Shown in pieces: positions 7,262 to 41,622 of a DNA stretch of 54,196 nt. The stretch lies in IMG/VR virus record IMGVR_UViG_3300034407_002255, positions 1 to 54,196 of that record. The stretch is one strand, 5' to 3'. The stretch is from a virus. Taxonomy: Duplodnaviria > Caudoviricetes. Made by a program: the position numbers and the translations under genes. Position 1 is the stretch's first letter, and the number at the start of each line of letters is the position of its first letter. The notes beneath the pieces were generated by a model, which worked only from the letters and a program-made list of their open reading frames with translations, had not been told where the DNA came from and did no database searches.

Positions 7262-10200
7262 ATGGCACCTTTTGATTCTGGATTACCAACAAAAATATCT
7301 CCATTAATAGATGGTCAAGTGCCTGATTTTATTCAGGCAGATCATCCTGTTTTTGTAGAGTTTCTTAAACAATATTATAAGTTCTTAGAATCTGCTGAGA
7401 TTACTATCGACGGCACAGTTGATGATTTGTTATTGGAGACATTTACAACAAGTTATGTGTCCTTGGATGGTACAAATGAGTCAGGATTGGACGGTGGAGA
7501 TAGAGTTGTTTTAGAGACAGGTTCTGGCACCACAGGAAAATTTGAAATTGGTGAAACCATCACTGGATCGACAAGTAAAGCAACCGCAACAGTTCTTGTT
7601 GACGCAGAGGGTAAAGCAGCTTCATGGACTGCTAGACTTTTCATTTCTGCGAACCAAAAGTTTATTGAAGGTGAAACAATAACTGGCGGAACATCTGGTG
7701 CGACCTCAACTATATTAACATATAGGGCAAACCCTGTACAGAATATTCAACAACTTTTAGAATATCAAAATACAGATAATACAGTTGATCATTTTTTAAC
7801 AGCGTTTAGAGATTCGTTTTTGGACTCCATCCCTCTTGCTCTTGCAGATGGAGTATCAAAAAGAAAATTAATCAAATCAATTCGTGACTTGTACGCAGCA
7901 AAAGGAACTTCAGAGGGTCACAAGTTATTCTTTAGAATTTTATTGGGTCAGGAAGCAGAGATAGACTATCCATCGAAGTACATGATGAGAATAAGTGATG
8001 GTAACTGGTCCACTCCGACGATAATTAGATGCACATCTGATTCCACTGGTGCCATACCGTCAGAGATGGCAGGCCAAACTGTAACTGGAGCATCATCTGG
8101 AACTAAAGCTCAAATTATAGGTGTGACCACCTTCAATCAAGGTACAGATTCCGTTGTTGAATTTTCGTTACGAGAGGATAGTATTGAGGGTTCTGGTTTT
8201 TCTATTTCAGAAACATTTACCGGACAAACAACATCAACCGATATAATTCAACAGTTCACAGTGCAAGGTATTGTAACAGATGTAACCGTAAACGACGGCG
8301 GTATTCTTTACAGTGTCGGAGATGCAATAACCTTTGACACTCAAAAGGGTAATGGTCGGGCTGAGGCAAAAGTTAGTGAAATCAGTAGTGGTTCAATATC
8401 GGGAGTGCATATTGAGGAACGTGGTGAGAATTATGCTATTGGAGACTCTTTAAAATTCACACCAGCATCAACTGATGTTTCTGTAGATGATGCGAGAGCA
8501 TTTGTTTCTGTCGTTGGTGGTCGGTTATCATTAGAGGATTCAACAGCAATCACCCCAACTTTTTTCAATGTAGAAAATGAAACAAACTCACAGTTTGTCA
8601 ATACAAAAATATTACTAAATGGAACGTCCATAGCTGACGCTGCTGTTGAACCGTATGCTGTTCAAGGGACTGATAGAAGATATAGTGATAGCAGACTTTA
8701 TTACTATCCACTGTATGTCACTAAGGCAAGAGCAGAGGCAGCAAACACCTCAACTGGACTTGCTCACGCACACGTTTTTGAACAATATCCTGACATAGTT
8801 TTTTATATGCCCAGTGATGATCAGAATCATGCGAAGTCAACCTTCGACTCATCAAAGTATGATTTATTTGTGACAAGACAAAAAACAGTTGATGATGGGG
8901 ATGAAATAGTTTTAGAGGATGATTTTAAACTTCTTCAAGAGGAAGAGTTATTATCTCTAGATTCTTATGGCACAGATACAGATGGTATCATTTTGGAGTC
9001 AGGGACTTTCACGGTTGCTGAATCAACAGAGATTAATAGACTGTTTTTTGTTGATGGCGGCGGTGGTTACAAAAAATTACCAACGGTCACGGTGACTTCC
9101 TCCGCTGGTTCCGGTGCAGAAATGGTTGCAAATACAACCACCATTGGTGCTATCAAAGAGATTGAAGTTGTTGATAACGGATTCAAATATAACGCAGATG
9201 TTCCAGAGGCATCTGTTAACACAAACTTGATATTGAAAGATGTTGATGCTACATTTAACTTTGGTAGTCGATTGACATCTCATACAGGAAATGTTGTTTC
9301 ATACGACAATTCAGTTCATAAGTTAGTTACTAGTTCAACACCTACCAATAGATTGACAATGGAACAATCTGGTACTTTCAATGAAGCTATTAGATTAGAA
9401 AATACTGCGTTTGCAGGAATCGGTGAAGAACAGCATGGACCAGTTAATCAGAACTATAGTGTGCAAGATGAATCAGATGATGGTGTATTAATTGATAATC
9501 ATAGTGAAAAAGATACAAGGATTACCTTAGAGAATGAGCCAGGTTCTATAGTAATTGATGCTTTTGAAATTGGAAATTATGAACAAATTAGTTTAGAGCA
9601 AGACTTAGATTCTCCCGTAGATGTAGGAATTGAACTTGAGGACAGTTTAGTTGTAAAGGCAGATGTATCTGGTAAGATTTTATTGAATTCTCATAGAAGA
9701 ATAAAATTTGCACGGACTGAACAACTAAATGAAAGAGTGGATTTAGAGGATGCCACTGTAGGTAACAATGTTTTTGGCGAACAACAATCAGGTGGGCTTC
9801 TGTATAACTCTAGCATGGATGATGTTGGTGACCGTTTCGACCTTGAGGCTGATACTCCCGGCAGAGAGGGGAGAGGGTTTATTCAGTTTGAAACTGCCAC
9901 TGAAAGTAGTTCGGGGTTAGGAAGAGAACCTAGACCAATTTTTGATGGAACTGGTTTTAGTGAAGGCGATAGAGTAACATATGAAATTGATACTAGTATA
10001 GAATTTGGGAATAATACAGATTCCATCCTTTTGGAAACTTCTGAAAATCCGTTATTTAACTCGGGCAGTTTTCTCATACAAGAGGACACAGGTAACTCTA
10101 TAGTATTAAATACTAGTGGCGGTATTGATAATGAACTAGATGTTGGAGATAAACTTTTACAACCTGTTTTAGATCGTTCCGAAGCCTCTAATCCTGGCCA

Positions 10201-12682
10201 ATCAATAAAACATGTTAATACTCCAAACTCCAGATTAATCGGTGAGGGATTAGATACTTTTGTAACAGAAATTTCCGATCTTGATAATTTAGGACCTGCT
10301 GAATCTGGTAAAAACTTTATCGTTTACGATGAAGTCATCTTTTCTGGTGATGAAGATGGATATGGTTATATAAGTTTAGATGGAACTAATAACCTTAGCG
10401 CAGATGCGGGAGACAGAGTATTAAGCGAGCAAGCTGGATTTAATATTCTTCTAGATGGAAATCCATCCGATCCAAGTTTTGAATCTGGTGACATACTTCT
10501 TACTGAAGATGACACAGGTGGTGAACAGATAATTTTAAATGCCACTGATAATCGTGCTAGAGATGATGGTGATGAAATTGTTATGGAAGATGCCTTTAAT
10601 GTTGTAGGTGATTCCATATCAGATGCGGCCGGTGGTATTGCAACAGTTCTTAATCAGGGTACAGCATCAGTAACGGCAAATATTGGAACGACAGCACCCA
10701 GACTTGGTAATTATATAAACACCGATAGTCTTGTCAGCGAGGACATCATAAGAATTCAAGATTCATATTTTTATCAAGCATTCTCTTATGAAGTTAAAGT
10801 TGGTTCTATTCTATCTGATTATATCAATGAGTTGAAAGCATCAGTTCATCCTGCTGGATTTATTCCTTTTGGTAAATTATCACTGTCATCACAGATATCT
10901 GTAAAGATAGGCACAACCGGAGAAAGCACTATTGACTTTACCGGAGACACAGATACGTTTAGTCCAGAATTTGCATCTCTCTTTGGTCTTGTATTTGGTG
11001 AGACTTTGCGTATGCATCATGGCGAGGTAAGAGAAGGTGTTCTTTCTCCAGATGGTAGTAGCAGTTTATTTAACTCATTAGTACAAGAGAACGGAACTGC
11101 CATAGGTGACAAGCTTTTAGAAGAGACTGACGGCGATGCATTGTTGTTTGAAAGTGGTTTTGAGATTGCGGTGGAGAACTCACCACAACACAGTGACGGT
11201 GCTATCCTTTTGGATGCTGGTGTTGGTGGTTCGTTATTATTAGAAACAGCTTTAGGAGAAAATCTAAATCAAGATAGGTCTGTTTCTCATATCACCAAAT
11301 TGTCAGTTAGGCCAGAGATCACTGCACCTAAAACTGCATATGGTGCCCCGATTGCTTCTGGTGTACCAGCTGGTTCTTTATTCATAGCTCCCGGCGGCAT
11401 ACAACTGGAGGATGGATTGTCCGATGGACTTCCGGCCATCGAAAAAGATAATTTGGTGTTAGATGGTGTTGATAACAATAGCACTGGTGGTGGTGATAAA
11501 ATACTTTTTGAAGAAGACTTCAATACGGTATCTGGTGTAAAAATCTCTGACTTGGATGGTTTGTCTATAAGTGACTTAGTTGAATTAGACACTGTAGGAT
11601 TTGTTGAAAATGCTGGTTTAGACTCTGATGGTGATAACATAGCACTTGATGGCACAGATAGCTCTGCATCTAACGCAGATGACAGCCTCTTATTGGACGG
11701 CGGTATCGGCGGCGCTGGTGCTGGTTCCAAGTTACTTCTTGATGGTGCTGGGTTTAGAAATTTCAGTGATCCACCAGAGGGTGGAATAATATTTGAACAG
11801 AGCTCTGCATCTGAAGAATTAGTATTAGAGGATTTCTTGCAACTTCTCATGGAAGATGGTGCTAACATAGATTTAGAGACGGGAACAGATACGGGTCTTT
11901 TAATTGGTGAAGCGATTGGTGTTGGAGACAATAGTGTTAATATAGTCATTGAACATGGTTTGATTGCTGGTGAGAAACTTATCACAGAAGGAAGTAAAAT
12001 TGAACTTGAGGATGACACATTTGGTGGAACTATTCCACCAGAGAACTTTGGTAATAAAGGTATAACACAGTTTACAAGACAAGCAGTTATAACCACTAGA
12101 GACAAAACTAATAGACTCGCACTACAAGATGAATTTGAAATTAATTTAGGGATTGCATTAGAGGACAGTAGCGGAAGTATCAGATTAGATGGAACATCAG
12201 CTGTTCTTGACATTGAGGGGCAGATATTACTGGATGGCACAGACTCTGCTAAAAGTGATGAGGGGTCTCTGTTATTATTAGACAGGACAGATGGTGGTGG
12301 ATCAGATGCGGGAGATAATGTTCTTCTTGACAGCACAGGTGGACGTGATCTTGGTGACAAGTTGATTATGTTTGATACAGTTCGTAATTTTGTTGTTGGT
12401 AATGAGGGTGGTTTCTTTTTATTGGATGGGACAGATGGAACTGGCTCTAACGCTGGTGATGAGTTATTGTTAGAAACAAGTGATGATTTTGGGATAGGTG
12501 GAACACTTGAATTTATTAATCAAAATACGATTAATTTGGCGAATGGTTTAGATGCAGAAAGTGGTGGTTTAGTATTGCCAGGGTCAGAAGCAGATACTGG
12601 TGAGGGTGAAGTTTTGGTAACAACCTTTGATAGCGCTATTGGTACGTTTGATTCAACACAAACAACCTTCGATGCTGCATAA
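7262..12682 (+). CDS. gp7: Baseplate wedge initiator gp7-like, greatly expanded with acidic repeats
   Basis: Between gp6 and gp8; N-terminal Q.PDFI...P.FVEFLKQYY, LY.AKGT..G.KLFFRIL, later IQDSYFYQAFSYEVK..VHPAG. Confidence 0.8.
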   Translation: MAPFDSGLPTKISPLIDGQVPDFIQADHPVFVEFLKQYYKFLESAEITIDGTVDDLLLETFTTSYVSLDGTNESGLDGGDRVVLETGSGTTGKFEIGETITGSTSKATATVLVDAEGKAASWTARLFISANQKFIEGETITGGTSGATSTILTYRANPVQNIQQLLEYQNTDNTVDHFLTAFRDSFLDSIPLALADGVSKRKLIKSIRDLYAAKGTSEGHKLFFRILLGQEAEIDYPSKYMMRISDGNWSTPTIIRCTSDSTGAIPSEMAGQTVTGASSGTKAQIIGVTTFNQGTDSVVEFSLREDSIEGSGFSISETFTGQTTSTDIIQQFTVQGIVTDVTVNDGGILYSVGDAITFDTQKGNGRAEAKVSEISSGSISGVHIEERGENYAIGDSLKFTPASTDVSVDDARAFVSVVGGRLSLEDSTAITPTFFNVENETNSQFVNTKILLNGTSIADAAVEPYAVQGTDRRYSDSRLYYYPLYVTKARAEAANTSTGLAHAHVFEQYPDIVFYMPSDDQNHAKSTFDSSKYDLFVTRQKTVDDGDEIVLEDDFKLLQEEELLSLDSYGTDTDGIILESGTFTVAESTEINRLFFVDGGGGYKKLPTVTVTSSAGSGAEMVANTTTIGAIKEIEVVDNGFKYNADVPEASVNTNLILKDVDATFNFGSRLTSHTGNVVSYDNSVHKLVTSSTPTNRLTMEQSGTFNEAIRLENTAFAGIGEEQHGPVNQNYSVQDESDDGVLIDNHSEKDTRITLENEPGSIVIDAFEIGNYEQISLEQDLDSPVDVGIELEDSLVVKADVSGKILLNSHRRIKFARTEQLNERVDLEDATVGNNVFGEQQSGGLLYNSSMDDVGDRFDLEADTPGREGRGFIQFETATESSSGLGREPRPIFDGTGFSEGDRVTYEIDTSIEFGNNTDSILLETSENPLFNSGSFLIQEDTGNSIVLNTSGGIDNELDVGDKLLQPVLDRSEASNPGQSIKHVNTPNSRLIGEGLDTFVTEISDLDNLGPAESGKNFIVYDEVIFSGDEDGYGYISLDGTNNLSADAGDRVLSEQAGFNILLDGNPSDPSFESGDILLTEDDTGGEQIILNATDNRARDDGDEIVMEDAFNVVGDSISDAAGGIATVLNQGTASVTANIGTTAPRLGNYINTDSLVSEDIIRIQDSYFYQAFSYEVKVGSILSDYINELKASVHPAGFIPFGKLSLSSQISVKIGTTGESTIDFTGDTDTFSPEFASLFGLVFGETLRMHHGEVREGVLSPDGSSSLFNSLVQENGTAIGDKLLEETDGDALLFESGFEIAVENSPQHSDGAILLDAGVGGSLLLETALGENLNQDRSVSHITKLSVRPEITAPKTAYGAPIASGVPAGSLFIAPGGIQLEDGLSDGLPAIEKDNLVLDGVDNNSTGGGDKILFEEDFNTVSGVKISDLDGLSISDLVELDTVGFVENAGLDSDGDNIALDGTDSSASNADDSLLLDGGIGGAGAGSKLLLDGAGFRNFSDPPEGGIIFEQSSASEELVLEDFLQLLMEDGANIDLETGTDTGLLIGEAIGVGDNSVNIVIEHGLIAGEKLITEGSKIELEDDTFGGTIPPENFGNKGITQFTRQAVITTRDKTNRLALQDEFEINLGIALEDSSGSIRLDGTSAVLDIEGQILLDGTDSAKSDEGSLLLLDRTDGGGSDAGDNVLLDSTGGRDLGDKLIMFDTVRNFVVGNEGGFFLLDGTDGTGSNAGDELLLETSDDFGIGGTLEFINQNTINLANGLDAESGGLVLPGSEADTGEGEVLVTTFDSAIGTFDSTQTTFDAA

Positions 12683-14888: not shown

Positions 14889-17800
14889 ATGCCCCAAAAA
14901 ACAAATTTAAATGTTGCCCCGTACTATGACGATTTTAATGAATCTGATAATTTTGTGCGAACACTGTTTCGGCCAGGGTTTGCCATACAGGCGAGAGAGT
15001 TAACACAGCTCCAATCGGTTTTACAAAATCAATTGGAGCAGGGATTTAGTCATATCTTCACAGATGGGACTATGATCATTCCTGGCCAAGTAACATATTC
15101 TGGAGGTAAAGACGCATTAAGATATGTTAAATTAGCATCAACAATTAGTGGAGAAACTATTGAGTTAGATCAGTTTGTTGACGCTGACAATCCTGTTATT
15201 GTCACAGGTAAAACTTCTGGTGTGCAGTTCATGGTGATCGACGTTGCAGCTGCAACATCAACTGACCCAGCAACTTTATTTGGTCATTATATTACAGGTA
15301 ACCTTCAAGGTACAAGAGATTATAATCAAAATACAGACAGAGATACCCTCCGTGGTGAAGTTCAACAACTTGATGCAGCAGGGTTCGATAGATTTGTTGT
15401 TGATGAGGAATTAACTGCAAACGTAGCAATTCAACACGGAAGCACTGCTTTTGCAATTGGGGATGTGTGTCTTAAAACAGAAGCGACAGAGGACACAAGT
15501 GTTACAGATGGAAGAGTAACCGGACTTTCAACTCTTGCAAAAATTTCTGAAGGTATATATTTTACCAGAGGACATTTTGTAAAAGTAGATGATCAAATTA
15601 TTGTTGTAGAAAAGTATAACTCAAAAAACATAAGCGTAAGAATTGGTTTACAGGTTAACGAAGAAGTTGTAACACCAGAGACAGATACCACTTTGTTAGA
15701 TAATGCACAGGGGTCATCTAACTTTGCTGCGAAGGGTGCCCATAGGTTAAAAATATCTTTAACTCTTGTATCAAAAGCACTTGGTTCTACAGATGATGCT
15801 AACTTCTATGAAATCGTTAGAATTAAAGATGGTAAAGCTGAGAAGTTTGCAAGAACCACAGATTATTCAATTATTGAAGAGACACTTGCTCGTAGAACCT
15901 TTGATGAATCTGGAAACTACACTGTAAGACCATTTACCTTCCAAATAAAAGAATCGGTAGACGTTAGTGTGGGTGCAGAGAATTTTGAAGGTGCATACAC
16001 GGTTGGCCAAACTACGGACAAAGGTAATGTTGCATCCGACGACTTACTAGCACTTCAAATATCTACAGGTAAAGCATATGTTAAAGGTTTTGAAATTGAA
16101 AAGATTGCTCCAACTGTTCTTGATATTACTAAGGCAAGAAGTTTCAATACTGTAAATGCTGGTGTCACTGCATTTGAGATTGGTAACTATGTAGCAATTA
16201 CTAATCTACACAGCACCCCAGATATTACATTTATTAGTGGTGAGTCAACAGCATTTAAAGAAATACAATTGTATGACACAGCAATCGCAACTAGAGGAAG
16301 TGCATCTGGCACAAAGATAGGTGTTGCTCGTGCAAGAACATATCAGCATCAGTCGGGAGTTGCAGGACAAACAGATGCAGTTTATCGTTTGTATCTTTTC
16401 GACATTAGACCATTCACTAGAATTACTTTATCCGATACTCCTAGTCCATCAATCACTTCAGTTGCTACTAATGGAGGTTCAAGAATAACTGGTAACACAA
16501 GTGGTGCAACAGGATTTGTGTTTGGTTCTGGAACCACTGGAACAACTCTTATTCTAACTAACGTTGCCGGAACTTTTCAGGCGGGAGAAAAACTTAAACT
16601 GTCAAACTCAGCTGAGACAGATCAGTTAATAGAAAATTCAAGTAACGCAGATTTAACTGTTGATAGATTAGTAACGTTTACGTTTGATCAAGTCCGGTCT
16701 GTTTTCATGGAGGACCCAGACTCGGGTCAAGACTTTACTGCTGACATAGCACTCACCTCAGTTCAGACCACGGCATCTTTTATTGTTCTTGATGGAACAG
16801 ATGCTAATGCTTCAGACTCAGAGGATAACATTGTTACGGAACAGGAGGGTATTCCTGTTTCTCTAAACCCTGCAGCATCTGGTGGAACGGGATCAACTGT
16901 TAAACAGGCAAAACTAGAAGAGGCTGAGAAAAACTTATCTTTGTTTAAGTTAGCAAAACGTCCAGTTAAGACCTTGTTGACTGCAACTAATAACGGAGTT
17001 AGTGATACCCAATTTACTATTCGTAAACAGTTTGTTGCAACCACAAACTCCTCTGGAGCTGTCACTGTTTCTGCTGGTGCAAATGAGACTTTTGTATCCC
17101 ACTCTGAAACGGACTATACTATATCCATTCTTACTGGTGGTACGGGCTCAGGAAAACAAGGTGACATAGTAAGTGCTTCAACAGGATTTTCTGGCGCTGG
17201 CTCTGCAACTCTGACAATCACCAACAATGCTGTTTTTGGAACTGGTGCTAAACTAAAAATAATGGCGACCCTACTGAAAACATCAGTTGTGCAAAAAACA
17301 AAGACCACAAAATTGATGAAACAGTTGAAGGTTGTTGCGGGAACAACAGATGCATTTGGAACTCGGCCTTCAGATAAAGTTATATCTCTGGGTAGGGCAG
17401 ATGCGTTTCGACTTATGGCTGTTTTTGAAGGTGTCGATTCAAGCACTGATGCTGCCGCACCAACTATAAGTTTAACTGATGTTAATGGTACTTTTATTCG
17501 TGGTGAAAAAATTGAGGGCGGAACTTCTCAAGCAACTGCAAGAATTGTTAACACCAATACACCGTTAAGTTTGGTTTATACGAGTGGAAATAAAACTTTC
17601 GTTGTAGGAGAAGAAATTACTGCTGAAAGCTCTGGTGCAACTGGAACGATATCTGCTGTTACCATTGGTGACAAAAATATCACACCTAACTTCCTATTTG
17701 ACTCTGGTCAACGAGATAACTTCTATGACATTTCTAGAATACATCGGCGGCCGGGTATCCCTGCCCCCGTTGGAAGACTTTTAGTCATCTATGATTATCT

Positions 17801-20800
17801 TGAGCATAGTTCGGGTGATGTTATAACCGTAGACTCTTATTCAGACGTTGCTAATCAAATGGACTATGTTGATATTCCAACATACACTGCTACTAAAGTT
17901 GATCCAGATGCTCCAGCACCAACTGGTGAGTTTCCGTTGTATAACGTGTTCGACTTTAGACCGACTGTTGAAGATGCAGCAGGAACATCCACTGATGTTT
18001 CTTTGGTTGATGAAATTACAGGACACTCTTTAGATTTCTTCCATCGTCAATATGATGGAACAGGTGCGTCTCCTAATAATTTCTTGAAACCAGGCTCTCT
18101 TGTTCAAGCAGATTATGAATATTATTTACCTAAGAGAGCAGTTCTTGATCTTGACAAAGAGGGATTTTTTAATCTAACTGAAGGTGAACCATCTGAAGCG
18201 CCCGCTCTCCCAGAGATGACAGACGGAGCGATGAAACTTGCTGAGTTATTCATACCGGCATATACTTTCAAGCCAACTGATGTTGTTCTTCGCAGAGAGA
18301 AGAACCAAAGATTTACCATGAAAGACATTGGTAAACTCGCAGACCGTATTGGTAATTTAGAATATTACACACACCTTTCTCTTCTGGAAAGAGATGCAGA
18401 GAGTTTTGAGATTACCGATGCAAACGGATTGAACAGATTTAAATCTGGATTTATTGTTGATGCTTTCCAAGGCCATCGTCTTGGTGATGTGCAACACCCA
18501 GATTATAATTGCTCAATTGACCAAGAAAATAATGAGTTACGTCCTAAAACTAAAAATAAAAATGTTACTCTCATTGAAAAGTTCTCTACAGATTCAGAAA
18601 GAGCAAACTCTGGATATCAAAAGACAGGAGACTTGGTAACCCTGCCTTATACAGAGGTTGTTGCTTCAGAACAAGTATACGCTACGAGACTTGAAAGAGT
18701 TACACCCGTGCTTCTTTCTCACTGGAATGGTAAAATTGAGTTAAGCCCTTCCGGCGATAACTGGTTTGAGGTAGAGATAGCACCAGACCTTATCATAAAT
18801 CAAGAGGGTAACTTTGATACCGTCCTTGCAGCAAATAGAGATGCGATAGGAACAATTTGGAACGCATGGCAAACACAATGGTCAGGTGTTGTTCAATCAT
18901 CATCCTCGCAATGGTGGGAAGGCAATTCATTAGTTGAAAGAACTACACAAACAGTTAGATCAGATCAACAACGAACTGGTGTTCAAACGGATGTGGTAGA
19001 AAAAATTGATTTAGAATCTATGGGAACAAGAGTTATATCCAGAGCGATGCTTCCTTTCTGTCGTGAGAACACGATTGAATTTACTGGAACAGACTTTTTA
19101 CCTAACACACAACTTTATCCGTTCTTTGATCGTAAAGACGTTGCACAGTTTACAAAACCAGCCGAGGGATTTTCTACAAGTGATGCGAGTTTAATTTTTG
19201 GAGATGCACTAATCTCTAGTCCCTCTGGTAAAATTTCTGGGACGTTCCAAATCCCTGATCCTAAAGTTGCGGGAAATCCTCGATTTAGAACTGGAGAGGT
19301 AAGCTTCCGTCTTACATCGAGTCCGACTAATATTACATCAAAGGACCCCCAGACGGCAGCGGAGGCAATTTACCATGCTGTTGGTGTTCTTGAAACTGAA
19401 CAAGAAACTATTCTTGCAACAAGAAACGCTGAAGTCGTTAGAAAAGACGTTGTTGAAAATACGGTTGTTTTCTCTAACGTGATTGACCAAAGGCAGATTG
19501 GAACAAGACAACCGCCTGTACCACCCTCATCTGATGGAGATGGAGATGGTGATGGCGACGGTGGTGACGGTGATCCACTTGCACAAACTTTCATGGTTGA
19601 TGATGTTGGAGGAATGTTTGTTACGAGTTGTGATATTTTCTTCCAAGCAAGAGATGATATTTTACCAGTGACTTTGGAACTTAGGAATGTCATCAATGGA
19701 TATCCTGGCCCAAAGATTATGCCTTTTGGACGGGTCGTTAAGGAACCATCAGAAATAACTTTGACAGAGGATGCAAAAACAGCCACTACGTTTACATTTA
19801 AATCTCCAGTTTATCTCCAACAAGGATTTGAATATTGTATCTGTCTTTTATCAAACTCGCCTGTATATAAGGTGTGGATTGCTCGCATGGGTGAGACTGA
19901 ACTTCAGTCAACTTTGACAGCAACACAAACGGGTGGAACGGCGACGGCTGCAAGTAATCAGTTATTTGCTGAGAGAACTGTATCTGAACAACCCGCTCTT
20001 GGTGTTTTGTTCAAATCTCATAATAATAGGACTTGGGCTCCATCTTTGATGGAGGATTTAAAGTATACTTTGAACAGAGCTTCTTTCAATGCTTCCACTG
20101 GAAACTTCCCTGTGGTAAACCAAGTAAACCCTGTTAAACTACTTGAGAAAAATCCTCTTATTTTCCAAGACGGGAGTAATGTTGTTCAAGTTAAACACAG
20201 AGACCACCAGATGTATTCAACATCCAATAACGTTACACTTGCAAACGTTAAGTCTGGTGCGTCAACAACTCTTGCGTCAGCGATAACAAATGATGCAACG
20301 TCCATCACGTTATCCGATGGAACTGACTTTGATAACACGAGTGGTAAATTCTCTAGAGATTCTAGTAACACATATTTCATAAAAATTGGTGATGAGATTA
20401 TTACTTATCAAACAATCTCTGGTGCAGCGATTACTAGTGCAACAAGAGGGACGAATGGAACCACCGCAGCTGCACATGCAGCAGGGGCAACAGTTGAATT
20501 ATTCATGTTGCACAAAATTCCATTTACGGAACTTAATACGACACACACCTCTCTTGGTAATATTGGAATTGATGATTACACTATTACAATAACCACCTCT
20601 GCTGTGATTGATGGGACTGGTGTCACAAGAGCACAAAATGGTGAAACAGAAGTAACAGCAACGGAAAATATTTTGTTTGATCTTGCACAATACTCAATTT
20701 CAAATATGACAGTTAGTGGGACGAATGTCGTGGCCACCAAACAAAATACCACTGGAACAAGTCCTAGTGGCTCTCAAACTTCATTTGTTAAAACGGCTGC

Positions 20801-21470
20801 CGCAAATGCACAAGTGATACCTTTGAATGAAAATGTGTATTATGAAAAACCATTTATTGCTGCATCAGCAATTAATGAAACAAATGAAATGGCTGGTGAA
20901 AAATCAATGGAGATAAATTTAGAATTGAAGACAGATTTTGAAAATGTATCTCCAGTTATTGATACAGAGAGAATGACGGTATATGCTATTGCGAACAGAG
21001 TCAATAAAATTGATTCTTCTTCTGATGTGTTCCCGTCTTCGGAGTATATTCCATCAACAGAACCAGATGGTGATAACAATGAAGCGATATACTGCACCAA
21101 GAAAGCAACTCTCGCACAAGCAGCAACTTCACTGAAGGTATTCTTTGCTGCGAATAGGGATAATGACGCAGAGATTAAAGTATTGTATAAAATACTAAGG
21201 TCCGATGATGCGAGTGACTTTGATGAATTGGGATGGAGATTCTTTAATGATGGTGAAGCAATACCTGGCCTACCAGACCAAGCAACTAATCCATCACTTG
21301 GTAGAGATGATTTCCAAGAGTATTTGTTTACTGCTGGTGTGACTGATGATGGTATCGGTGACCCTCTTGATCCATTCATTGCGTTTGCGATTAAGATAGT
21401 TATGCAATCATCCAACTCTGCCGAACCACCAAGAATTAAAGACTTTAGAGCAATGGCATTGGCGACATAA
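14889..21470 (+). CDS. Large virion structural protein, VrlC/DUF4815-like
   Basis: MPQKTNLNVAPYYDDF..LFRPG..IQARELTQLQS, LARRTFDESGNY, RFTMKDIGKL..RI.NLEYYT.LSLLE, RFKSGFIVD.F, DPLAQTF, PRIKDFRAMALA. Confidence 0.88.
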   Translation: MPQKTNLNVAPYYDDFNESDNFVRTLFRPGFAIQARELTQLQSVLQNQLEQGFSHIFTDGTMIIPGQVTYSGGKDALRYVKLASTISGETIELDQFVDADNPVIVTGKTSGVQFMVIDVAAATSTDPATLFGHYITGNLQGTRDYNQNTDRDTLRGEVQQLDAAGFDRFVVDEELTANVAIQHGSTAFAIGDVCLKTEATEDTSVTDGRVTGLSTLAKISEGIYFTRGHFVKVDDQIIVVEKYNSKNISVRIGLQVNEEVVTPETDTTLLDNAQGSSNFAAKGAHRLKISLTLVSKALGSTDDANFYEIVRIKDGKAEKFARTTDYSIIEETLARRTFDESGNYTVRPFTFQIKESVDVSVGAENFEGAYTVGQTTDKGNVASDDLLALQISTGKAYVKGFEIEKIAPTVLDITKARSFNTVNAGVTAFEIGNYVAITNLHSTPDITFISGESTAFKEIQLYDTAIATRGSASGTKIGVARARTYQHQSGVAGQTDAVYRLYLFDIRPFTRITLSDTPSPSITSVATNGGSRITGNTSGATGFVFGSGTTGTTLILTNVAGTFQAGEKLKLSNSAETDQLIENSSNADLTVDRLVTFTFDQVRSVFMEDPDSGQDFTADIALTSVQTTASFIVLDGTDANASDSEDNIVTEQEGIPVSLNPAASGGTGSTVKQAKLEEAEKNLSLFKLAKRPVKTLLTATNNGVSDTQFTIRKQFVATTNSSGAVTVSAGANETFVSHSETDYTISILTGGTGSGKQGDIVSASTGFSGAGSATLTITNNAVFGTGAKLKIMATLLKTSVVQKTKTTKLMKQLKVVAGTTDAFGTRPSDKVISLGRADAFRLMAVFEGVDSSTDAAAPTISLTDVNGTFIRGEKIEGGTSQATARIVNTNTPLSLVYTSGNKTFVVGEEITAESSGATGTISAVTIGDKNITPNFLFDSGQRDNFYDISRIHRRPGIPAPVGRLLVIYDYLEHSSGDVITVDSYSDVANQMDYVDIPTYTATKVDPDAPAPTGEFPLYNVFDFRPTVEDAAGTSTDVSLVDEITGHSLDFFHRQYDGTGASPNNFLKPGSLVQADYEYYLPKRAVLDLDKEGFFNLTEGEPSEAPALPEMTDGAMKLAELFIPAYTFKPTDVVLRREKNQRFTMKDIGKLADRIGNLEYYTHLSLLERDAESFEITDANGLNRFKSGFIVDAFQGHRLGDVQHPDYNCSIDQENNELRPKTKNKNVTLIEKFSTDSERANSGYQKTGDLVTLPYTEVVASEQVYATRLERVTPVLLSHWNGKIELSPSGDNWFEVEIAPDLIINQEGNFDTVLAANRDAIGTIWNAWQTQWSGVVQSSSSQWWEGNSLVERTTQTVRSDQQRTGVQTDVVEKIDLESMGTRVISRAMLPFCRENTIEFTGTDFLPNTQLYPFFDRKDVAQFTKPAEGFSTSDASLIFGDALISSPSGKISGTFQIPDPKVAGNPRFRTGEVSFRLTSSPTNITSKDPQTAAEAIYHAVGVLETEQETILATRNAEVVRKDVVENTVVFSNVIDQRQIGTRQPPVPPSSDGDGDGDGDGGDGDPLAQTFMVDDVGGMFVTSCDIFFQARDDILPVTLELRNVINGYPGPKIMPFGRVVKEPSEITLTEDAKTATTFTFKSPVYLQQGFEYCICLLSNSPVYKVWIARMGETELQSTLTATQTGGTATAASNQLFAERTVSEQPALGVLFKSHNNRTWAPSLMEDLKYTLNRASFNASTGNFPVVNQVNPVKLLEKNPLIFQDGSNVVQVKHRDHQMYSTSNNVTLANVKSGASTTLASAITNDATSITLSDGTDFDNTSGKFSRDSSNTYFIKIGDEIITYQTISGAAITSATRGTNGTTAAAHAAGATVELFMLHKIPFTELNTTHTSLGNIGIDDYTITITTSAVIDGTGVTRAQNGETEVTATENILFDLAQYSISNMTVSGTNVVATKQNTTGTSPSGSQTSFVKTAAANAQVIPLNENVYYEKPFIAASAINETNEMAGEKSMEINLELKTDFENVSPVIDTERMTVYAIANRVNKIDSSSDVFPSSEYIPSTEPDGDNNEAIYCTKKATLAQAATSLKVFFAANRDNDAEIKVLYKILRSDDASDFDELGWRFFNDGEAIPGLPDQATNPSLGRDDFQEYLFTAGVTDDGIGDPLDPFIAFAIKIVMQSSNSAEPPRIKDFRAMALAT

Positions 21471-24851: not shown

Positions 24852-24857
24852 TAACAT

Positions 24858-25445: not shown

Positions 25446-25453
25446 GGAATTAT

Positions 25454-26943: not shown

Positions 26944-27635
26944 ACCCTGTAGAGTGGTGCAGAAAAAATGATGTGTGGTATTTGAAAATAGATTTAGACA
27001 TTCCAGAGATCATTATTAAAGAAGCTCAAGCAGTCTACGATGAGGGTTTTTTTGTTCCACACCGACTACAAGATGGTGATGAGTGGTGGTCTTCTTCTCT
27101 TCATGGATTTGTCCCAGAAACCGATAATGATACTTCAATGGGATGGCATTACACTAAGAATCCGTCTGGTCATGGACTCACTGAAGATACAGTAAAGTGG
27201 GGATGGACTGAAGTTGCCGAGGTCGCACCAGAGATGAAGAGGTGGTTAGAAGATTTTCCACACAAACACTACAGGCGTTGTAGGTTTATGTTGATAAAAC
27301 CAGGCGGTAGTATCACTGCACATCATGACGCTGGAGACGCTAGAATAAATGAGGGCCGGCAGAGAAACATTTCAGCGGCAATCAATCTTGCAATCTATCA
27401 ACCAGAAAATTGTTACTTGAGAAGAGTCGACACAAAAGAGGAACTACCATTTGAAAATTGCACTGGTTTCTGGTTTGACAATGGGGTCACCCATGAGGCA
27501 CTAAACAGTTCAGATGAAAATCGTTTTCACTTTATTATTCATGGGGGATCGAATAAAGAGAGAATTGAATTGATGAAACGATCTATGGTGAAACAGTTTG
27601 GCAAGAGTGTGTTGAAAGAGATAGCCCATGACTAA
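26940..27635 (+). CDS. Aspartyl/asparaginyl beta-hydroxylase-like 2OG-Fe(II) oxygenase
   Basis: RCRFMLIKPGGSITAHHD...WFDNGVTHEALNSSDENRFHFIIHG. Confidence 0.85.
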   Translation: MNPVEWCRKNDVWYLKIDLDIPEIIIKEAQAVYDEGFFVPHRLQDGDEWWSSSLHGFVPETDNDTSMGWHYTKNPSGHGLTEDTVKWGWTEVAEVAPEMKRWLEDFPHKHYRRCRFMLIKPGGSITAHHDAGDARINEGRQRNISAAINLAIYQPENCYLRRVDTKEELPFENCTGFWFDNGVTHEALNSSDENRFHFIIHGGSNKERIELMKRSMVKQFGKSVLKEIAHD

Positions 27636-33074: not shown

Positions 33075-34076
33075 ATGGCCGTCAATTCAATATTTCATAC
33101 CAGCAATAGAACTGCGATTGCTACAGAACAAAACTTATATAGGGATTTGGTTGCAGAGGCTATTCAAATATATGGTCATGACGTTCATTATGTTGACAGA
33201 ACTTTGACTGCTGAAGATACAGTTTTTGGTGAAGACGCTCTTTCTAAATTTAGAAACTCTGCAAAGATAGAGATGTACGTTGAAAATGCAGAGGGTGGGT
33301 ATCAGGGCGAAAGAGAACTCATGAATAAGTTTGGGTTGCAAGACCTAAGTGAGTTAACCTTTGTTGTTGCAAAACATAGATTTCAAGAATTAACAAAACA
33401 GTTTACCATCGAAGATGGCACAGATACAACTGGCGGTTCTATTCTGTTGGAGGAGGGAACTATAGATCAGAGTGGTAATGCAATCGTGTTTGAAGGGACA
33501 GATTTTTATCTTCTCAATGAAACTGATGCGACAGATTCAGATAGGCCTTTAGAGGGGGATTTAATTTTTCATCCTGTTCTCAAAAAACTATTTGAGGTTA
33601 ATTTTGTTGACCATGATGAACCGTTCCACCAATTAGACAATAATCCAGTATTTAAATTACAATGTCGCACATTTGATTATAGTTCTGAAGCACTTGATAC
33701 TGGCATCACTGATATTGATGCGATTGAAGATGCATTGTCTGTGGACACTATGTTCTTTCAGTTTACTTTGGAACAATCAAGTGCGGTCAATGAACAAATT
33801 AGAATACATGATACAGCCACCACTAGAGGTCTACTAAAAGATGAAACGGATAATGATAATATTATTGGTGAGGACGACTCAACTTCTGTTGGTGAAAGTC
33901 TACTTCTAGAGACAGGAGAGTTCTTGATACAAGAAGACTATATAGTTGGTACAGGTGGAGCAAACACAGGTAGTCTTGATAACACAGCTCAAAATGAGTT
34001 ATTTGATGATCTTGATGATGATGTGTTAGACTTCACAGAAAGTAATCCGTTTGGTGATGCAGGGAGTAAAGGTTAA
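33075..34076 (+). CDS. gp14: Neck protein gp14 with acidic insertions
   Basis: EQNL..DLV.EAIQIYG.DV.Y, IEMYVEN, KFGL, RPLEGDLIF, LFEV.FV.H..PF.QL, LDFTESNPFG. Confidence 0.92.
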   Translation: MAVNSIFHTSNRTAIATEQNLYRDLVAEAIQIYGHDVHYVDRTLTAEDTVFGEDALSKFRNSAKIEMYVENAEGGYQGERELMNKFGLQDLSELTFVVAKHRFQELTKQFTIEDGTDTTGGSILLEEGTIDQSGNAIVFEGTDFYLLNETDATDSDRPLEGDLIFHPVLKKLFEVNFVDHDEPFHQLDNNPVFKLQCRTFDYSSEALDTGITDIDAIEDALSVDTMFFQFTLEQSSAVNEQIRIHDTATTRGLLKDETDNDNIIGEDDSTSVGESLLLETGEFLIQEDYIVGTGGANTGSLDNTAQNELFDDLDDDVLDFTESNPFGDAGSKG

Positions 34077-39036: not shown

Positions 39037-39039
39037 ATT

Positions 39040-39339: not shown

Positions 39340-39346
39340 GTTATTT

Positions 39347-39354: not shown

Positions 39355-39395
39355 AGAATCGGAGCATATAAAAACACGTTTAGGATTTCAATTTT

Positions 39396-39403
39396 TATAA
39401 ATA
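39396..39403 (+). promoter_or_regulatory. T4-type late promoter TATAAATA
   Basis: Exact consensus upstream of gp18. Confidence 0.85.
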
Positions 39404-39450
39404 TCTGTAATAACAATAATAATGCTCTTGGAAAATAAAGGAGTACAAAA

Positions 39451-41622
39451 ATGGGTTTCTTAGTATCGCCAGGTGTACAGGTAAGAGAGATTGACCTTAC
39501 AAATATTGTTCCTGCTGTTCAAACCAACATTGGTGCGATTGCAGGGCCATTTGCAAAGGGTCCAGTGGCATCTGTAACTGCCATTAGTTCTGAAGAGGAA
39601 CTAGTTCAAGTATTTGGTAAGCCAAATGCTGATAACTTTGAATATTTTTTCACTGCTGCAAATTTCTTGCAGTATTCTAACGCACTTAGAGTTGTCAGAT
39701 GTGAGTCTGGTGTTTTAAACGCTGCGTCTAATTCAGGTCTTCTTATTAGAGATACAGATCATTACTCTGGTTCTTTTAGGGACGGCCAGGGTAGTGTTGG
39801 GCCTTTCGCCGCAAGAACTGCCGGTACACATGGTAACTCATTGAAAGTTTCTATTTGTGCAACAGCAACTGCATTTTCACAAAACATCACAGGTGCAAAC
39901 CAAGTTAACGGTGCAGCATCGAGTGGTGCAACGTCTGTTACAGTTGATGACGTTGATCTTGCAGACAATGTAATCAATGTTGGAGATATTGTTTCTTTCT
40001 TCACATCAAGTGGATTTGACACATTTGCATCAGGTCATGAGGGAATTGAGTACGAAGTTACTGCTCGTGATACAGCAAATAATACGATTACAATTCGTGA
40101 ATTGGACAACCCGAATGGAACAGGCTTGGTTAATTCCCTTGCCGATAATTCTTTCATTCGTCGTCGTTGGAAATTCTATGATTTATTCGCCGATGCGCCG
40201 GGAACATCACAGTGGTCAACTGATAACGAAAGAGGCACAAATGACGAGCTTCATATCGTTGTTTACGATAGCACTGGTGATTTATCTGGATTTGCTGAAG
40301 GTGTTGCTGGTCAAAGAACTTTGTCAGTTTTAGAAACATATGACGGTTTGTCAAAGAACAAAAACGCAAAAACTCCACAAGGTGGAACGAACTACTATCC
40401 AGATGTTCTCTATCAGCAGTCTGCTTTCATTTACTGGATGGATCATCTAGCTTCTGGTACAAACTGGGGTTTAGACCTTGAATTGTCCAACAATGTTACT
40501 CTTAACGGAACTGACGCAAATGGTTCTGATGAGGGTGATTTCATTATCTTAGATGGCACAGACGGCTCTGCAACGAATGCTGGAGACAACGTTATCTTTG
40601 ATAACACAGAGAGCGACGGTAGAGGTTCTGGAGTTTATGCCGCTGTTGACACGCCGACATACGATGCACTTACAGGTGGAACAGACGATTATGCTGTTAC
40701 TCTTGGTGAGAAGAGGTCTGCGTATGATCTGTTCAAGAACGCTGAACTTCATGATATTAACTTTGTTCTTGGTGGCCCTTCAGTTACAGTTACAGGTAGT
40801 TCTTTCGGAACCGCCGGTGACGAATTCGACACACACGGTACAATGTTAACTGATCTTGTGGAACTTCGTAAAGACTGCGTTGCATTCATCTCTCCTGCTC
40901 GTCAGGCAGTTGTTAATGTTCAAAGTGAAGTTACACAAACAACAAACGTTAAAGACTCCTTTGACACACTACCTTCATCGTCTTATGTGGTTTATGACAG
41001 TGGGTACAAATACATGTATGACAAATACAACGATGTATTCCGTTTTGTCCCTCTCAATGGTGATATTGCTGGTCTGTGTGCTAACACCGATAGAGTTGCT
41101 GACCCGTGGTTCTCGCCAGGTGGTTACAACCGTGGTAATGTTCGTGGAGCAATTAAACTTGCGTATAACCCACAGCAAGCAAACAGAGACATTCTCTATC
41201 AGGCAAGAATTAATCCAGTTGTGGATTTCCCTGGCCAGGGTGTGGTTCTGTTCGGTGATAAAACTGCTCTTACAAAACCAAGCGCCTTTGATCGTATCAA
41301 CGTGCGTAGATTGTTCTTGGTTCTGGAAAAAGCAATTGCTACCGCTGCTAAGTTCCAACTCTTTGAGTTCAACGATGAGTTTACACGGGCACAGTTCCGT
41401 AACTTGGTTGAGCCTTTCTTGAGAGATGTTCAAGGAAGAAGAGGTATCACAGACTTTGTGGTGGTTGCCGACGGCACAAACAATACTGGTGAGATTATAG
41501 ATAGAAACGAGTTTGTCGCAGATATCTATATTAAACCGGCTCGATCAATTAACTTCATTACTCTTAACTTTGTTGCGGTTCGCACAGGTGTTGAGTTCTC
41601 TGAAGTCATTGGTAGATTTTAA
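39451..41622 (+). CDS. gp18: Tail sheath protein gp18
   Basis: SPGVQVREIDLT, PWFSPGGYNRG, FGDKT...SAFDRINVRRLF, IKPARSINFITLNFVA. Confidence 0.97.
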   Translation: MGFLVSPGVQVREIDLTNIVPAVQTNIGAIAGPFAKGPVASVTAISSEEELVQVFGKPNADNFEYFFTAANFLQYSNALRVVRCESGVLNAASNSGLLIRDTDHYSGSFRDGQGSVGPFAARTAGTHGNSLKVSICATATAFSQNITGANQVNGAASSGATSVTVDDVDLADNVINVGDIVSFFTSSGFDTFASGHEGIEYEVTARDTANNTITIRELDNPNGTGLVNSLADNSFIRRRWKFYDLFADAPGTSQWSTDNERGTNDELHIVVYDSTGDLSGFAEGVAGQRTLSVLETYDGLSKNKNAKTPQGGTNYYPDVLYQQSAFIYWMDHLASGTNWGLDLELSNNVTLNGTDANGSDEGDFIILDGTDGSATNAGDNVIFDNTESDGRGSGVYAAVDTPTYDALTGGTDDYAVTLGEKRSAYDLFKNAELHDINFVLGGPSVTVTGSSFGTAGDEFDTHGTMLTDLVELRKDCVAFISPARQAVVNVQSEVTQTTNVKDSFDTLPSSSYVVYDSGYKYMYDKYNDVFRFVPLNGDIAGLCANTDRVADPWFSPGGYNRGNVRGAIKLAYNPQQANRDILYQARINPVVDFPGQGVVLFGDKTALTKPSAFDRINVRRLFLVLEKAIATAAKFQLFEFNDEFTRAQFRNLVEPFLRDVQGRRGITDFVVVADGTNNTGEIIDRNEFVADIYIKPARSINFITLNFVAVRTGVEFSEVIGRF

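What the first reader, a model, noticed from the sequence alone, without database searches (positions are those of the whole stretch)
7455..40605. One short acidic motif inserted into several unrelated virion proteins
Seen: a ~20 aa motif, roughly hxL[DN]GTDxxxS[DN]AGDxhh[LF][ED], recurs in non-homologous structural genes. In gp7 it occurs about ten times (e.g. VSLDGTNESGLDGGDRVVLE ~7455, ISLDGTNNLSADAGDRVLSE ~10370, IALDGTDSSASNADDSLLLD ~11640, ILLDGTDSAKSDEGSLLLLDRTDGGGSDAGDNVLLD ~12225, FLLDGTDGTGSNAGDELLLE ~12415). It also occurs in the VrlC-like protein (IVLDGTDANASDSEDNIVTE ~16780), the fibre (VLLNGTDSSGTDAGDNLVLD ~21940), twice in tandem in sheath gp18 (~40495-40605), and degenerately in gp14. 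The DNA copies differ, so it is conserved as peptide. Known: I do not recall this motif in coliphage T4 gp7, gp14 or gp18. Inference: a portable surface tag used over baseplate, sheath and neck, acting as a Ca2+/metal-binding hairpin, a docking site for a decoration fibre, or an enzyme recognition site. I know of no description of such a virion-wide tag.
Basis: partly seen in the sequence, partly recalled or inferred. Interest (0 to 1): 0.85.

Follow-up and report, generated by a model that had tools for sequence, protein, structure and literature searches.

The report
Acidic hairpin motif across phage tail proteins
A conserved 20-residue acidic peptide recurs in otherwise unrelated tail proteins (baseplate, fibre, sheath, and the neck in relatives) of an uncultured marine T4-like phage lineage; no family or solved structure matched it here, and its likeliest role, binding calcium or magnesium on the tail surface, is untested.

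Summary
The window, a 54 kb contig of a marine T4-like myovirus nearest to phages Melnitz and HTVC008M, has 12 full copies of [IL][VIL]L[ND]GTDxSx[TS][ND]AGDx[ILV][LIV][LF][ED]. Eight are in the gp7-like wedge protein, two in tandem in the sheath, one in the VrlC/DUF4815 protein and one in a fibre. They score 23-32 bits; the next best of 1053 reading frames scores 3.8 and shuffled proteomes reach 5.5. Codon choice shows conservation as peptide only.

The sheath pair falls in a 38-residue gap of the Melnitz and HTVC008M sheaths. It is kept in 119 of 120 metagenomic sheath homologues. Relatives also carry copies in neck gp14.

A profile search of 1.84 billion proteins found only 166 carriers. 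All that could be classified are gp7-like, fibre or sheath proteins. Pfam and the PDB have no match.

AlphaFold gave no confident fold: pLDDT is 41-48 in the sheath insert, between confident domains. Weakly, it drew strand-loop-strand hairpins.

Best reading (about 0.4): a self-contained hairpin with a cation-binding Asx/Thr/Ser loop that can be inserted into exposed loops.

A phage Asp/Asn beta-hydroxylase gene lies nearby, but its distribution does not track the motif. Function remains untested.

The parts
7262..12682 (+). gp7-like baseplate wedge protein (1806 aa), carrier of 8 full copies
   Evidence: Pfam PF23786 Baseplate_wedge E 2.5e-9. PHROG baseplate wedge families E 1e-37 to 1e-38. 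It lies between the gp6 and gp8 homologues.
7457..7516 (+). motif copy, gp7 aa 66-85
   Evidence: 25.7 bits. HTVC008M gp055 has a copy at aa 64-83, a similar position from the N-terminus.
10370..10429 (+). motif copy, gp7 aa 1037-1056
   Evidence: 26.0 bits. The site is shared by 5 of 11 gp7 homologues. AlphaFold draws strands at 1036-1038 and 1052-1054, with low confidence.
10529..10588 (+). motif copy, gp7 aa 1090-1109
   Evidence: 28.5 bits. The site is shared by 11 of 11 gp7 homologues compared.
11453..11512 (+). motif copy, gp7 aa 1398-1417
Evidence: 25.9 bits.
11639..11698 (+). motif copy, gp7 aa 1460-1479
   Evidence: 23.7 bits. The site is shared by 9 of 11 homologues.
12224..12331 (+). 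tandem pair, gp7 aa 1655-1674 and 1671-1690 (16-residue period, shared middle strand)
   Evidence: 23.5 and 23.7 bits.
12416..12475 (+). motif copy, gp7 aa 1719-1738
   Evidence: 27.4 bits. The site is shared by 8 of 11 homologues. AlphaFold draws strands at 1719-1721 and 1735-1737, with low confidence.
14889..21470 (+). VrlC-like / DUF4815 protein (2193 aa), carrier of 1 copy
   Evidence: Pfam PF16075 E 4e-57. It is 36-38% identical to HTVC008M 'VrlC protein'.
16782..16841 (+). motif copy, VrlC aa 632-651
   Evidence: 28.2 bits. HTVC008M VrlC has a longer, different segment at the aligned place.
21699..23273 (+). tail-fibre-like protein (524 aa), carrier of 1 copy
   Evidence: No Pfam or PHROG family. 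It shares modules with the Kolga 'tail fiber' and the HTVC008M fibre proteins.
21942..22001 (+). motif copy, fibre aa 82-101
   Evidence: 29.3 bits. It falls in a gap of the Kolga fibre in the tblastn alignment. Fibre homologues P0130, P0147 and P0251 carry 5, 4 and 3 copies.
39451..41622 (+). tail sheath gp18 (723 aa), carrier of a tandem pair
   Evidence: Pfam Phage_sheath_1, Phage_sheath_1C and Gp18_domIII_N. T4-type sheaths are the best PDB matches.
40495..40602 (+). tandem pair, sheath aa 349-368 and 365-384
   Evidence: 27.7 and 32.1 bits. It lies within a 38-residue gap of the Melnitz and HTVC008M sheaths. It is kept in 119 of 120 metagenomic homologues. pLDDT is below 50 over 333-338, 340-379 and 383-397.
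33507..33569 (+). degenerate motif-like site in neck protein gp14 (aa 145-165)
   Evidence: Pattern seen by eye. The model scores it -0.4 bits. gp14 is identified by Pfam T4_neck-protein.
26940..27635 (+). candidate only: Asp/Asn beta-hydroxylase-like 2OG oxygenase inside the structural module; no link to the motif is shown
   Evidence: Pfam PF05118 E 3.4e-9, 37.2 bits against a cut-off of 22.6. H128, D130 and H185 are invariant in 17 orthologues. Its distribution does not track the motif.

Best explanation
The motif is a small self-contained module under selection. Two short hydrophobic strands (positions 1-3 and 17-19) pair with each other and hold out a loop of about 13 residues, [ND]-G-T-D-x-S-x-[TS]-[ND]-A-G-D.

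Because its two ends lie side by side, the unit can be added to or lost from exposed loops and linkers of unrelated tail proteins without disturbing their folds. In tandem, neighbouring units share a strand, which gives the 16-residue period.

I infer that the loop's Asp/Asn, Thr and Ser oxygens chelate a divalent cation, Ca2+ or Mg2+, both plentiful in seawater. This would stiffen the loop and put a ring of cation sites on the outside of the baseplate, fibres, sheath and neck. Those sites could stabilise the tail, or give weak cation-bridged contacts to anionic cell-surface polymers or between tail parts.

Shown: the motif exists, is conserved as peptide, is confined to tail proteins, behaves as an indel, and lies outside the confident core of the sheath. 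Inferred: the hairpin, the metal binding and the function.
For: Reality and selection:
- 12 copies at 23-32 bits against 3.8 in other frames and 5.5 in shuffles.
- Cross-validation between proteins works.
- Codon sharing equals the codon-usage expectation.
- Key positions in 216 distinct copies: L3 94%, G5 86%, T6 95%, D7 93%, A13 81%, G14 83%. Position 4 is N 50% / D 46% and position 12 is N 54% / D 44%.
- In the sheath family the motif columns are as conserved as the folded outer domains (0.59-0.65 against 0.71). The 16 residues after it are hypervariable (0.35, with 34% gaps).

Module behaviour.

Restriction to tail proteins:
- The 12 copies lie in 4 of the 46 window ORFs, all tail proteins; the other 42 have none.
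- Of the best 150 of 166 carriers world-wide, 52 are gp7-like, 8 fibre-like and 1 sheath.
- The other 89 have no similarity outside the motif and are mostly short fragments.
- Of the 61 of these that are at least 100 aa, every named PHROG family hit is tail fibre, tail protein or the gp7 family phrog_3465.

Hairpin (weak): AlphaFold places strands on both hydrophobic flanks of 2 of 8 gp7 copies (1036-1038/1052-1054 and 1719-1721/1735-1737), and single bridges at sheath residues 348 and 382 flank the tandem pair. All have pLDDT below 60.

Metal binding (inference from established chemistry):
- Asp and Asn interchange freely where a side-chain oxygen is a ligand.
- From position 4 to 15 the loop is 12 residues long, with Asx at 1 and 9 and Asp at 12, as in EF-hand-type loops.
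- Each copy carries a net charge of about -4.
Against: - No confident structure: sheath insert pLDDT 41-48, gp7 C-terminal half mean pLDDT 45. Six of 8 gp7 copies were not drawn as hairpins.
- The loop lacks DxDxDG or any other defined calcium signature. Thr at loop position 3 and Ser/Gly/Ala at position 5 are weak ligands.
- No Pfam calcium-binding family matches, even at E <= 10.
- Asn-Gly and Asp-Gly are also the commonest type I' turn sequences (recalled). The Asx alternation can therefore be explained by turn geometry without any metal.
- Nothing here measures binding, exposure or function.
Confidence: 0.4

Rival explanations
1. A purely structural turn or spacer. On this view the unit is a stable mini-hairpin built on Asx-Gly turns and tolerated in loops. 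It serves only as a rigid spacer or linker, with no ligand and no partner.
For: - Asx-Gly at positions 4-5 and a small A-G before D15 fit tight turns (turn statistics recalled).
- Copies sit between folded segments of gp7 and just before the return to sheath domain III.
- Copy number varies from 1 to 2 in sheaths without other change.
Against: - T6 (95%) and D7 (93%), and the Ser/Thr-rich loop, are conserved across non-homologous hosts and down to about 50% sheath identity. That is more than a spacer needs.
- A neutral spacer would not be expected to recur in five different tail protein families.
Confidence: 0.2
2. A common docking site. The loops on baseplate, sheath, neck and fibre would be recognised by one partner, such as a decoration protein, or fibres folded back along the tail as T4 long fibres are held against sheath and whiskers (recalled).
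For: - Carriers span neck to baseplate and include fibres.
- The motif is strongly conserved yet not confidently folded on its own. That pattern is typical of segments that order on binding (inference).
Against: - No candidate partner was identified.
- The sheath carries the motif in only part of the lineage: two 50 kb relatives have none, and Melnitz and HTVC008M sheaths lack it. A conserved partner would therefore have to be dispensable.
Confidence: 0.15
3. An enzyme recognition site. The Asp/Asn at position 4 or 12 would be hydroxylated by the phage's own Asp/Asn beta-hydroxylase-like oxygenase (ORF 26940-27635). Alternatively the invariant Thr, or the Asn of N-G-T, would be modified by another enzyme of the low-GC island at 24.2-32.2 kb.
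For: - ORF 26940-27635 matches PF05118 at 37.2 bits (cut-off 22.6) and lies inside the structural module.
- The H-x-D...H triad is invariant in 17 orthologues.
- The D/N alternation matches the dual specificity that names the family.
- Zaragoza-Solas 2020 lists this hydroxylase as core to all pelagimyophages, with no function given in the passages I read (PMC7029224).
- Radical SAM, GNAT and a weak glycosyltransferase hit are neighbours.
Against: - The distribution does not track the motif. Mosig has 3 PF05118 matches and no motif. P-HM1 has 2 and none. HTVC008M has 4 motif copies and only a sub-threshold match of 17.3 bits.
- Two 50 kb contigs carrying the orthologue have no copy at all.
- Only 18 of 71 orthologue loci have a copy within 10 kb.
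- The eukaryotic substrate consensus (Cys-framed EGF loop, recalled) is absent.
- No solved relative of the enzyme was found by sequence.
- D replaces N in 46% of copies, so an N-x-T glycosylation site cannot be the common feature.
Confidence: 0.12
4. A chance or compositional artefact of acidic, Ser/Gly/Thr-rich proteins, or a DNA-level repeat.
For: The carriers are very acidic: gp7 has net charge -199 and 16.9% D+E.
Against: - Shuffles keep the composition and reach only 5.5 bits.
- Other frames reach 3.8 bits.
- Cross-validation between proteins works.
- Codon sharing is at expectation.
- Self-BLAST of gp7 finds no larger repeat.
Confidence: 0.02

Closest known systems
Promiscuous accessory modules on phage structural proteins (Ig-like, FN3 and BACON-type domains; T4 Hoc) - recalled from the literature, not tested here
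   Same: One sequence module is scattered over non-homologous virion proteins. It is gained and lost as an insertion and is thought to sit on the surface and give weak adhesion.
   Different: Those are folded domains of 80-100 residues with Pfam models. This is a 16-20 residue unit with no Pfam match. It is confined to tail and neck proteins of one marine lineage.
EF-hand-like / DxDxDG calcium-binding loops, including dockerin and thrombospondin type 3 repeats (recalled)
   Same: An acidic 12-residue loop rich in Asp, Asn, Ser, Thr and Gly. Asx sits at loop positions 1 and 9 and Asp at 12, and Asp/Asn interchange freely.
   Different: There is no D-x-D-x-D-G. The loop is flanked by strands rather than helices. 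Thr and Ser/Gly/Ala occupy positions 3 and 5. No Pfam hit at E <= 10.
RTX nonapeptide beta-roll (GGxGxDxUx; recalled)
   Same: A short tandem acidic Gly/Asp repeat. RTX repeats are disordered without Ca2+ and fold on binding it. That would fit a conserved segment that AlphaFold leaves unfolded.
   Different: The period is 16, not 9. Copies are single or in pairs rather than long arrays. The consensus differs, and there is no Pfam HemolysinCabind hit.
Calcium-binding EGF domains, the substrates of Asp/Asn beta-hydroxylase (recalled)
   Same: A D/N position in a cation-binding loop, with an enzyme of that Pfam family encoded alongside.
   Different: There is no cysteine framework. The distribution of the enzyme gene does not support a link.
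gp7 homologue of Pelagibacter phage HTVC008M (I899_gp055, annotated 'head closure Hc2')
   Same: It carries 4 copies of the same motif, at aa 64, 335, 664 and 933. It is the only deposited phage record found with the motif.
   Different: In HTVC008M the motif is confined to gp7. Its sheath and VrlC lack it.

Membership tests
EF-hand-like / DxDxDG calcium-binding loop | D-x-D-x-D-G consensus at loop positions 1-6 | tested here: not met
   The consensus from 216 copies is [ND]-G-T-D-x-S, with no DxDxDG. The family definition is recalled.
EF-hand-like / DxDxDG calcium-binding loop | 12-residue loop with oxygen ligands at positions 1, 3, 5, 9 and 12 | tested here: inconclusive
   Counting from motif position 4: position 1 is N/D, 3 is T (95%), 5 is S/G/A, 9 is N/D, 12 is D (69%). 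The pattern is compatible but weak at positions 3 and 5.
EF-hand-like / DxDxDG calcium-binding loop | Measured Ca2+ binding | not testable with these tools
   Needs peptide or domain biochemistry.
RTX beta-roll | Tandem GGxGxDxUx nonapeptides | tested here: not met
   Period of 16 and a different consensus. No Pfam family at E <= 10 on four motif-bearing segments.
Asp-box / BNR repeat | S-x-D-x-G-x-T-W hairpin consensus (recalled) | tested here: not met
   The motif reads L-[ND]-G-T-D with no Trp. No Pfam hit.
Substrate of Asp/Asn beta-hydroxylase (cbEGF type) | Cys-framed consensus around the D/N (recalled) | tested here: not met
   No Cys is among the six commonest residues at any of the 20 motif positions.
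Substrate of Asp/Asn beta-hydroxylase (cbEGF type) | Co-occurrence of the enzyme gene and the motif | tested here: not met
   Among the 5 isolates, only HTVC008M has both a PF05118 match (17.3 bits, below the cut-off) and the motif. Mosig and P-HM1 have the enzyme family without the motif. Two of 5 long contigs with the orthologue have no copy.
N-glycosylation sequon N-x-[ST] | Asn at the first position | tested here: not met
   Position 4 is N in 50% and D in 46% of 216 copies.
Pfam or PHROG domain families (any) | A profile match covering the motif | tested here: not met
   Pfam finds none at E <= 10. In PHROGs only phrog_3465, the gp7 family that itself contains the motif, matches motif stretches.
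T4-type tail sheath gp18 (the carrier, not the motif) | Sheath domains III and IV and a fold like T4 gp18 | tested here: met
   Pfam PF04984, PF17482 and PF22671. phmmer against T4 gp18 gives E 5e-96. Foldseek top hits are T4-type sheaths.

The most novel reading that the evidence does not exclude
The motif is a tail-wide tag written for an enzyme. On this reading the Asp/Asn beta-hydroxylase, listed as core to all pelagimyophages with no function given in the passages read, would hydroxylate the Asx residues of the loops. That would create high-affinity Ca2+ sites on baseplate, fibres, sheath and neck, as in calcium-binding EGF domains of animals. It would be a post-translational modification system for phage tails. 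It would also explain a 2OG-oxygenase gene sitting inside the structural module of these marine T4-like phages.
Probability: 0.1. Interest if true: 0.85.

Novelty: new variant of a known kind. Interest (0 to 1): 0.55.

Why it matters
The carriers belong to an uncultured relative of the SAR11 and OM43 myophages. Three sheath homologues come from Tara Oceans data, and single 90% clusters hold up to 189 member sequences.

A short peptide kept under selection in up to five unrelated tail components points to a shared physical requirement of the tail exterior. Candidates are cation-dependent stability, adhesion or a common partner. None of these is part of the T4 paradigm as I recall it.

The motif also has practical uses:
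- It is a sequence marker for tail proteins in marine viromes, where fibres and gp7-like proteins are otherwise hard to annotate.
- It is a compact, naturally insertion-tolerant loop.
- It gives a concrete substrate hypothesis for a 2OG oxygenase in these phages.

If it proves to be only a turn-rich spacer, the finding is a modest annotation aid.

Tried and rejected
- Larger repeat: self-BLAST of gp7 gave no off-diagonal match at E <= 0.01, so the motif is not part of a bigger repeated domain.
- DNA repeat: rejected by the codon test.
- Known families: Pfam gave nothing at E <= 10 on four motif segments. The PDB profile search found only a chance hit at E 5.6. gp7 against the PDB found nothing at E <= 0.01. 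The two ESM Atlas part-searches gave scores of at most 0.86, or no usable hit.
- Close DNA relatives of gp7 among phage records: none by megablast. tblastn of the gp7 C-terminal 360 aa also found none.
- Structure: both AlphaFold jobs left the motif regions below pLDDT 60. No fold search was therefore made on the motif itself. Foldseek on the sheath model only confirmed the T4-type sheath.
- Hydroxylase link: tested by co-occurrence and not supported. The enzyme has no solved relative by sequence.
- Complex prediction of the hydroxylase (A4) with sheath residues 330-400 (A2) gave 'no answer', score 0.01 against a mark of 0.32, and the controls were not run. This is no evidence either way.
- Literature: text searches for pelagimyophage/sheath/baseplate, asparaginyl beta-hydroxylase/phage/virion, the pentapeptide strings (only unrelated acronym hits among the 20 listed of 389) and cyanophage cryo-EM/calcium turned up no description of the motif. 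From PMC7029224 and PMC3037559 I read only the passages returned by 'find'. Supplements were not seen and may list these genes.
- Limits of the counts: the sheath survey of 120 proteins was drawn by shared words with residues 250-480, so it is biased towards insert-bearing sheaths. The 89 'unclassified' carriers are mostly short fragments, and 28 of them under 100 aa were not scanned. BLAST's low-complexity filter was on.

Full report
**What the window is.** The 54,196-base window is the whole record held for this genome. It is the late-gene region of a T4-like myovirus. The gene order is:
- gp5-like spike
- gp25-like and gp6
- a gp7-like wedge protein, then a gp9/10-like protein and gp8
- a VrlC/DUF4815 protein and a fibre
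- a low-GC island of enzymes
- gp13, gp14 and gp15
- terminase, sheath, tube, portal, prohead protease, scaffold and major capsid protein
- UvsY, a helicase, gp55 and gp47

By sheath protein the nearest deposited phages are Methylophilales phage Melnitz (56% identity), Pelagibacter phage HTVC008M (53%) and Mosig (49%). No deposited phage is close at the DNA level.

**The observation.** A simple pattern found nine copies in 4 of 46 ORFs. A profile built from them found three more in gp7 at 7.4-15.9 bits. The final set is 12 full copies:
- eight in the gp7-like protein, at aa 66, 1037, 1090, 1398, 1460, 1655, 1671 and 1719
- two overlapping by a shared strand in the sheath, at aa 349 and 365
- one in the VrlC-like protein, at aa 632
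- one in the fibre, at aa 82

The controls are clean.
- Across all six frames the 12 copies score 23.5-32.1 bits, and the next best of 1053 frames scores 3.8.
- Fifty shuffled proteomes reach 5.5 bits.
- A profile made only from the gp7 copies recovers all four copies in the other proteins at 11.8-27.3 bits. The reverse profile reports seven of eight gp7 copies, of which four exceed its shuffled maximum.
- Where two copies share a residue they share the codon 41.1% of the time, against 41.6% expected from codon usage. The copies are therefore held together by selection on the peptide, not by recent DNA duplication.

- L3, T6 and D7 are above 90%.
- G5, A13 and G14 are above 80%.
- Asn and Asp are nearly equal at positions 4 and 12.
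- The flanks of different copies are unrelated, and gp7 has no larger internal repeat.
- In tandem, the last hydrophobic triplet of one unit is the first of the next, which gives a 16-residue period.

**It behaves as an insertable module.**
- Sheath: the tandem pair lies within a 38-residue gap of the Melnitz and HTVC008M sheaths. Both keep only a short remnant resembling part of the loop.
- Sheath homologues: 119 of 120 metagenomic homologues, down to about 50% identity over the searched region, have one or two copies at that place. The survey is biased towards proteins sharing words with that region.
- Fibre: the unit falls in a gap of the Kolga fibre.
- VrlC: it replaces a longer, different segment of HTVC008M VrlC.
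- gp7: among 11 homologues some sites are fixed (near aa 1090 in 11 of 11, 1460 in 9, 1719 in 8), and many occur in only one to three sequences.
- Related IMG/VR contigs: copies also appear in three gp14 neck proteins, one as a tandem pair, and in a 214-residue unknown ORF. All 36 copies found there lie on the coding strand in long ORFs.

**Distribution.** A profile search of 1.84 billion representative proteins found 166 with E <= 0.001.
- Of the best 150, after masking the motif, 52 resemble the gp7-like protein, 8 the fibre and 1 the sheath.
- The other 89 resemble nothing in the window and are mostly short fragments.
- Ten long unclassified ones have no Pfam family. Four are PHROG tail fibres.
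- Among the 61 of at least 100 residues, the named families hit are tail fibre, tail protein or the gp7 family.
- No capsid, replication or cellular family appeared.
- Among 50,697 deposited phage records, tblastn with the tandem pair found only HTVC008M. There the motif occurs four times, all in the gp7 homologue.
- Melnitz, Mosig, S-IOM18 and P-HM1 have none.

**Structure.** The sheath model is confident in the outer domains (pLDDT 80-92 over about 120-330) and in domain III (about 400-530). It drops to 41-48 over 333-397, the insert, with no regular structure apart from single bridges at 348 and 382.
- T4 gp18 aligns from window residue 406 (T4 residue 339) onwards. The insert therefore sits at the end of the protruding part, just before the chain returns to domain III. 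The T4 domain limits are recalled.
- It is not a buried part of a domain shared by all homologues.
- The gp7 C-terminal half folded poorly (mean pLDDT 45). Even so, at two copies the only strands drawn nearby are the two hydrophobic triplets flanking the loop. This is weak support for a strand-loop-strand hairpin.
- The insert is as conserved as the folded outer domains, while the following 16 residues are hypervariable. I read the combination of strong conservation with no confident fold as conditional folding on a ligand or partner. That is an inference.

**Mechanism.** I favour a cation-binding hairpin, at about 0.4.
- For it: an acidic 12-residue loop framed by paired strands, Asp/Asn interchange at two positions, invariant Thr and Asp, a marine setting rich in Ca2+ and Mg2+, and adjacent termini that explain the portability.
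- Against it: no calcium signature, no family match and no confident model. Asx-Gly turns could explain the alternation without metal.

**The enzyme idea.** ORF 26940-27635, inside the structural module, matches the Asp/Asn beta-hydroxylase family with an invariant H-x-D...H triad. Zaragoza-Solas et al. list this enzyme as core to all pelagimyophages (PMC7029224, passages read).
- The Asx alternation would suit such an enzyme.
- The test by distribution failed. The family is present without the motif in Mosig and P-HM1. It is only sub-threshold in HTVC008M, which has the motif.
- Two 50 kb contigs carrying the orthologue have no copy.
- I keep it as the boldest reading, at about 0.1.

**Comparison and novelty.** In behaviour the nearest thing is the set of promiscuous Ig-like and similar domains on phage structural proteins. 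In chemistry it is closest to EF-hand-like or RTX-type acidic loops. It meets the defining features of none of these (see the membership rows). I found no description in Pfam, the PDB or the text searches named above. I class it as a new variant of a known kind: a very small, undescribed, tail-restricted insertable repeat.

**Verdict.** The 'portable tag' reading is supported. 'Virion-wide' should be narrowed to tail and neck. The function is unresolved.

Noticed in passing
window 13140-13250 (ORF 12717-13367, about aa 143-177) and 21810-21915 (fibre aa 38-72); L003 19.7-28.0 kb; L004: A second shared module of about 35 aa (FEG..ETT..DPTADRTITIP type) occurs once in the gp9/10-like ORF and once in the fibre, just upstream of the acidic motif. 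It is repeated many times in the HTVC008M fibre proteins, which are annotated 'baseplate wedge initiator'. It also occurs in the tail fibre of the siphovirus Kolga, in Mosig and in cyanophage SS120-1.
   Followed up: partly
window 24258-32231: A low-GC island (34-36% against about 40%) sits inside the structural module. It holds an Asp/Asn hydroxylase-like ORF, a radical SAM ORF (27628-28929), a GNAT acetyltransferase (31725-32231), a weak glycosyltransferase hit (25442-26245) and several ORFs with no family. None of these matches the fetched parts of Melnitz or HTVC008M.
   Followed up: partly
window 35304-36314: A radical SAM ORF with a sub-threshold SPASM-domain match, a type often linked to peptide modification, lies between the small and large terminase subunits. 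The Pfam scores are below the curated cut-offs: 24.5 against 29.5, and 20.7 against 21.5.
   Followed up: no
window 7262-12682: A gp7-like wedge protein is present (Pfam PF23786, PHROG wedge families), between gp6 and gp8. PMC7029224 states that T4 gp7 is absent from pelagimyophages and replaced by VrlC. The HTVC008M homologue is annotated 'head closure Hc2', probably a mislabel carried by phrog_3465.
   Followed up: partly
window 40456-40470 (sheath aa 336-340): A G-T-N-W-G element just upstream of the motif pair is 82-100% conserved in the 51-sequence sheath alignment. It may belong to the same insert.
   Followed up: no
window 1041-1613, 2210-2905, 49921-50580: Three further ORFs resemble stretches of HTVC008M that are annotated as 2OG-Fe(II) oxygenase genes, at 24-33% identity. 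The contig therefore carries several oxygenase-like genes besides ORF 26940.
   Followed up: no
window ORF 12717-13367 and ORF 21699-23273, C-terminal ends: The gp9/10-like ORF and the fibre end in similar tails of about 20 residues (STLLI..S.GSTVKTV.G type). This suggests a shared attachment or chaperone-recognition element.
   Followed up: no
L066 14696-15340: A 214-residue ORF of unknown family in a related contig, about 4 kb downstream of the hydroxylase orthologue, carries two motif copies (27 and 14 bits). Outside the motif it resembles no window protein convincingly.
   Followed up: partly
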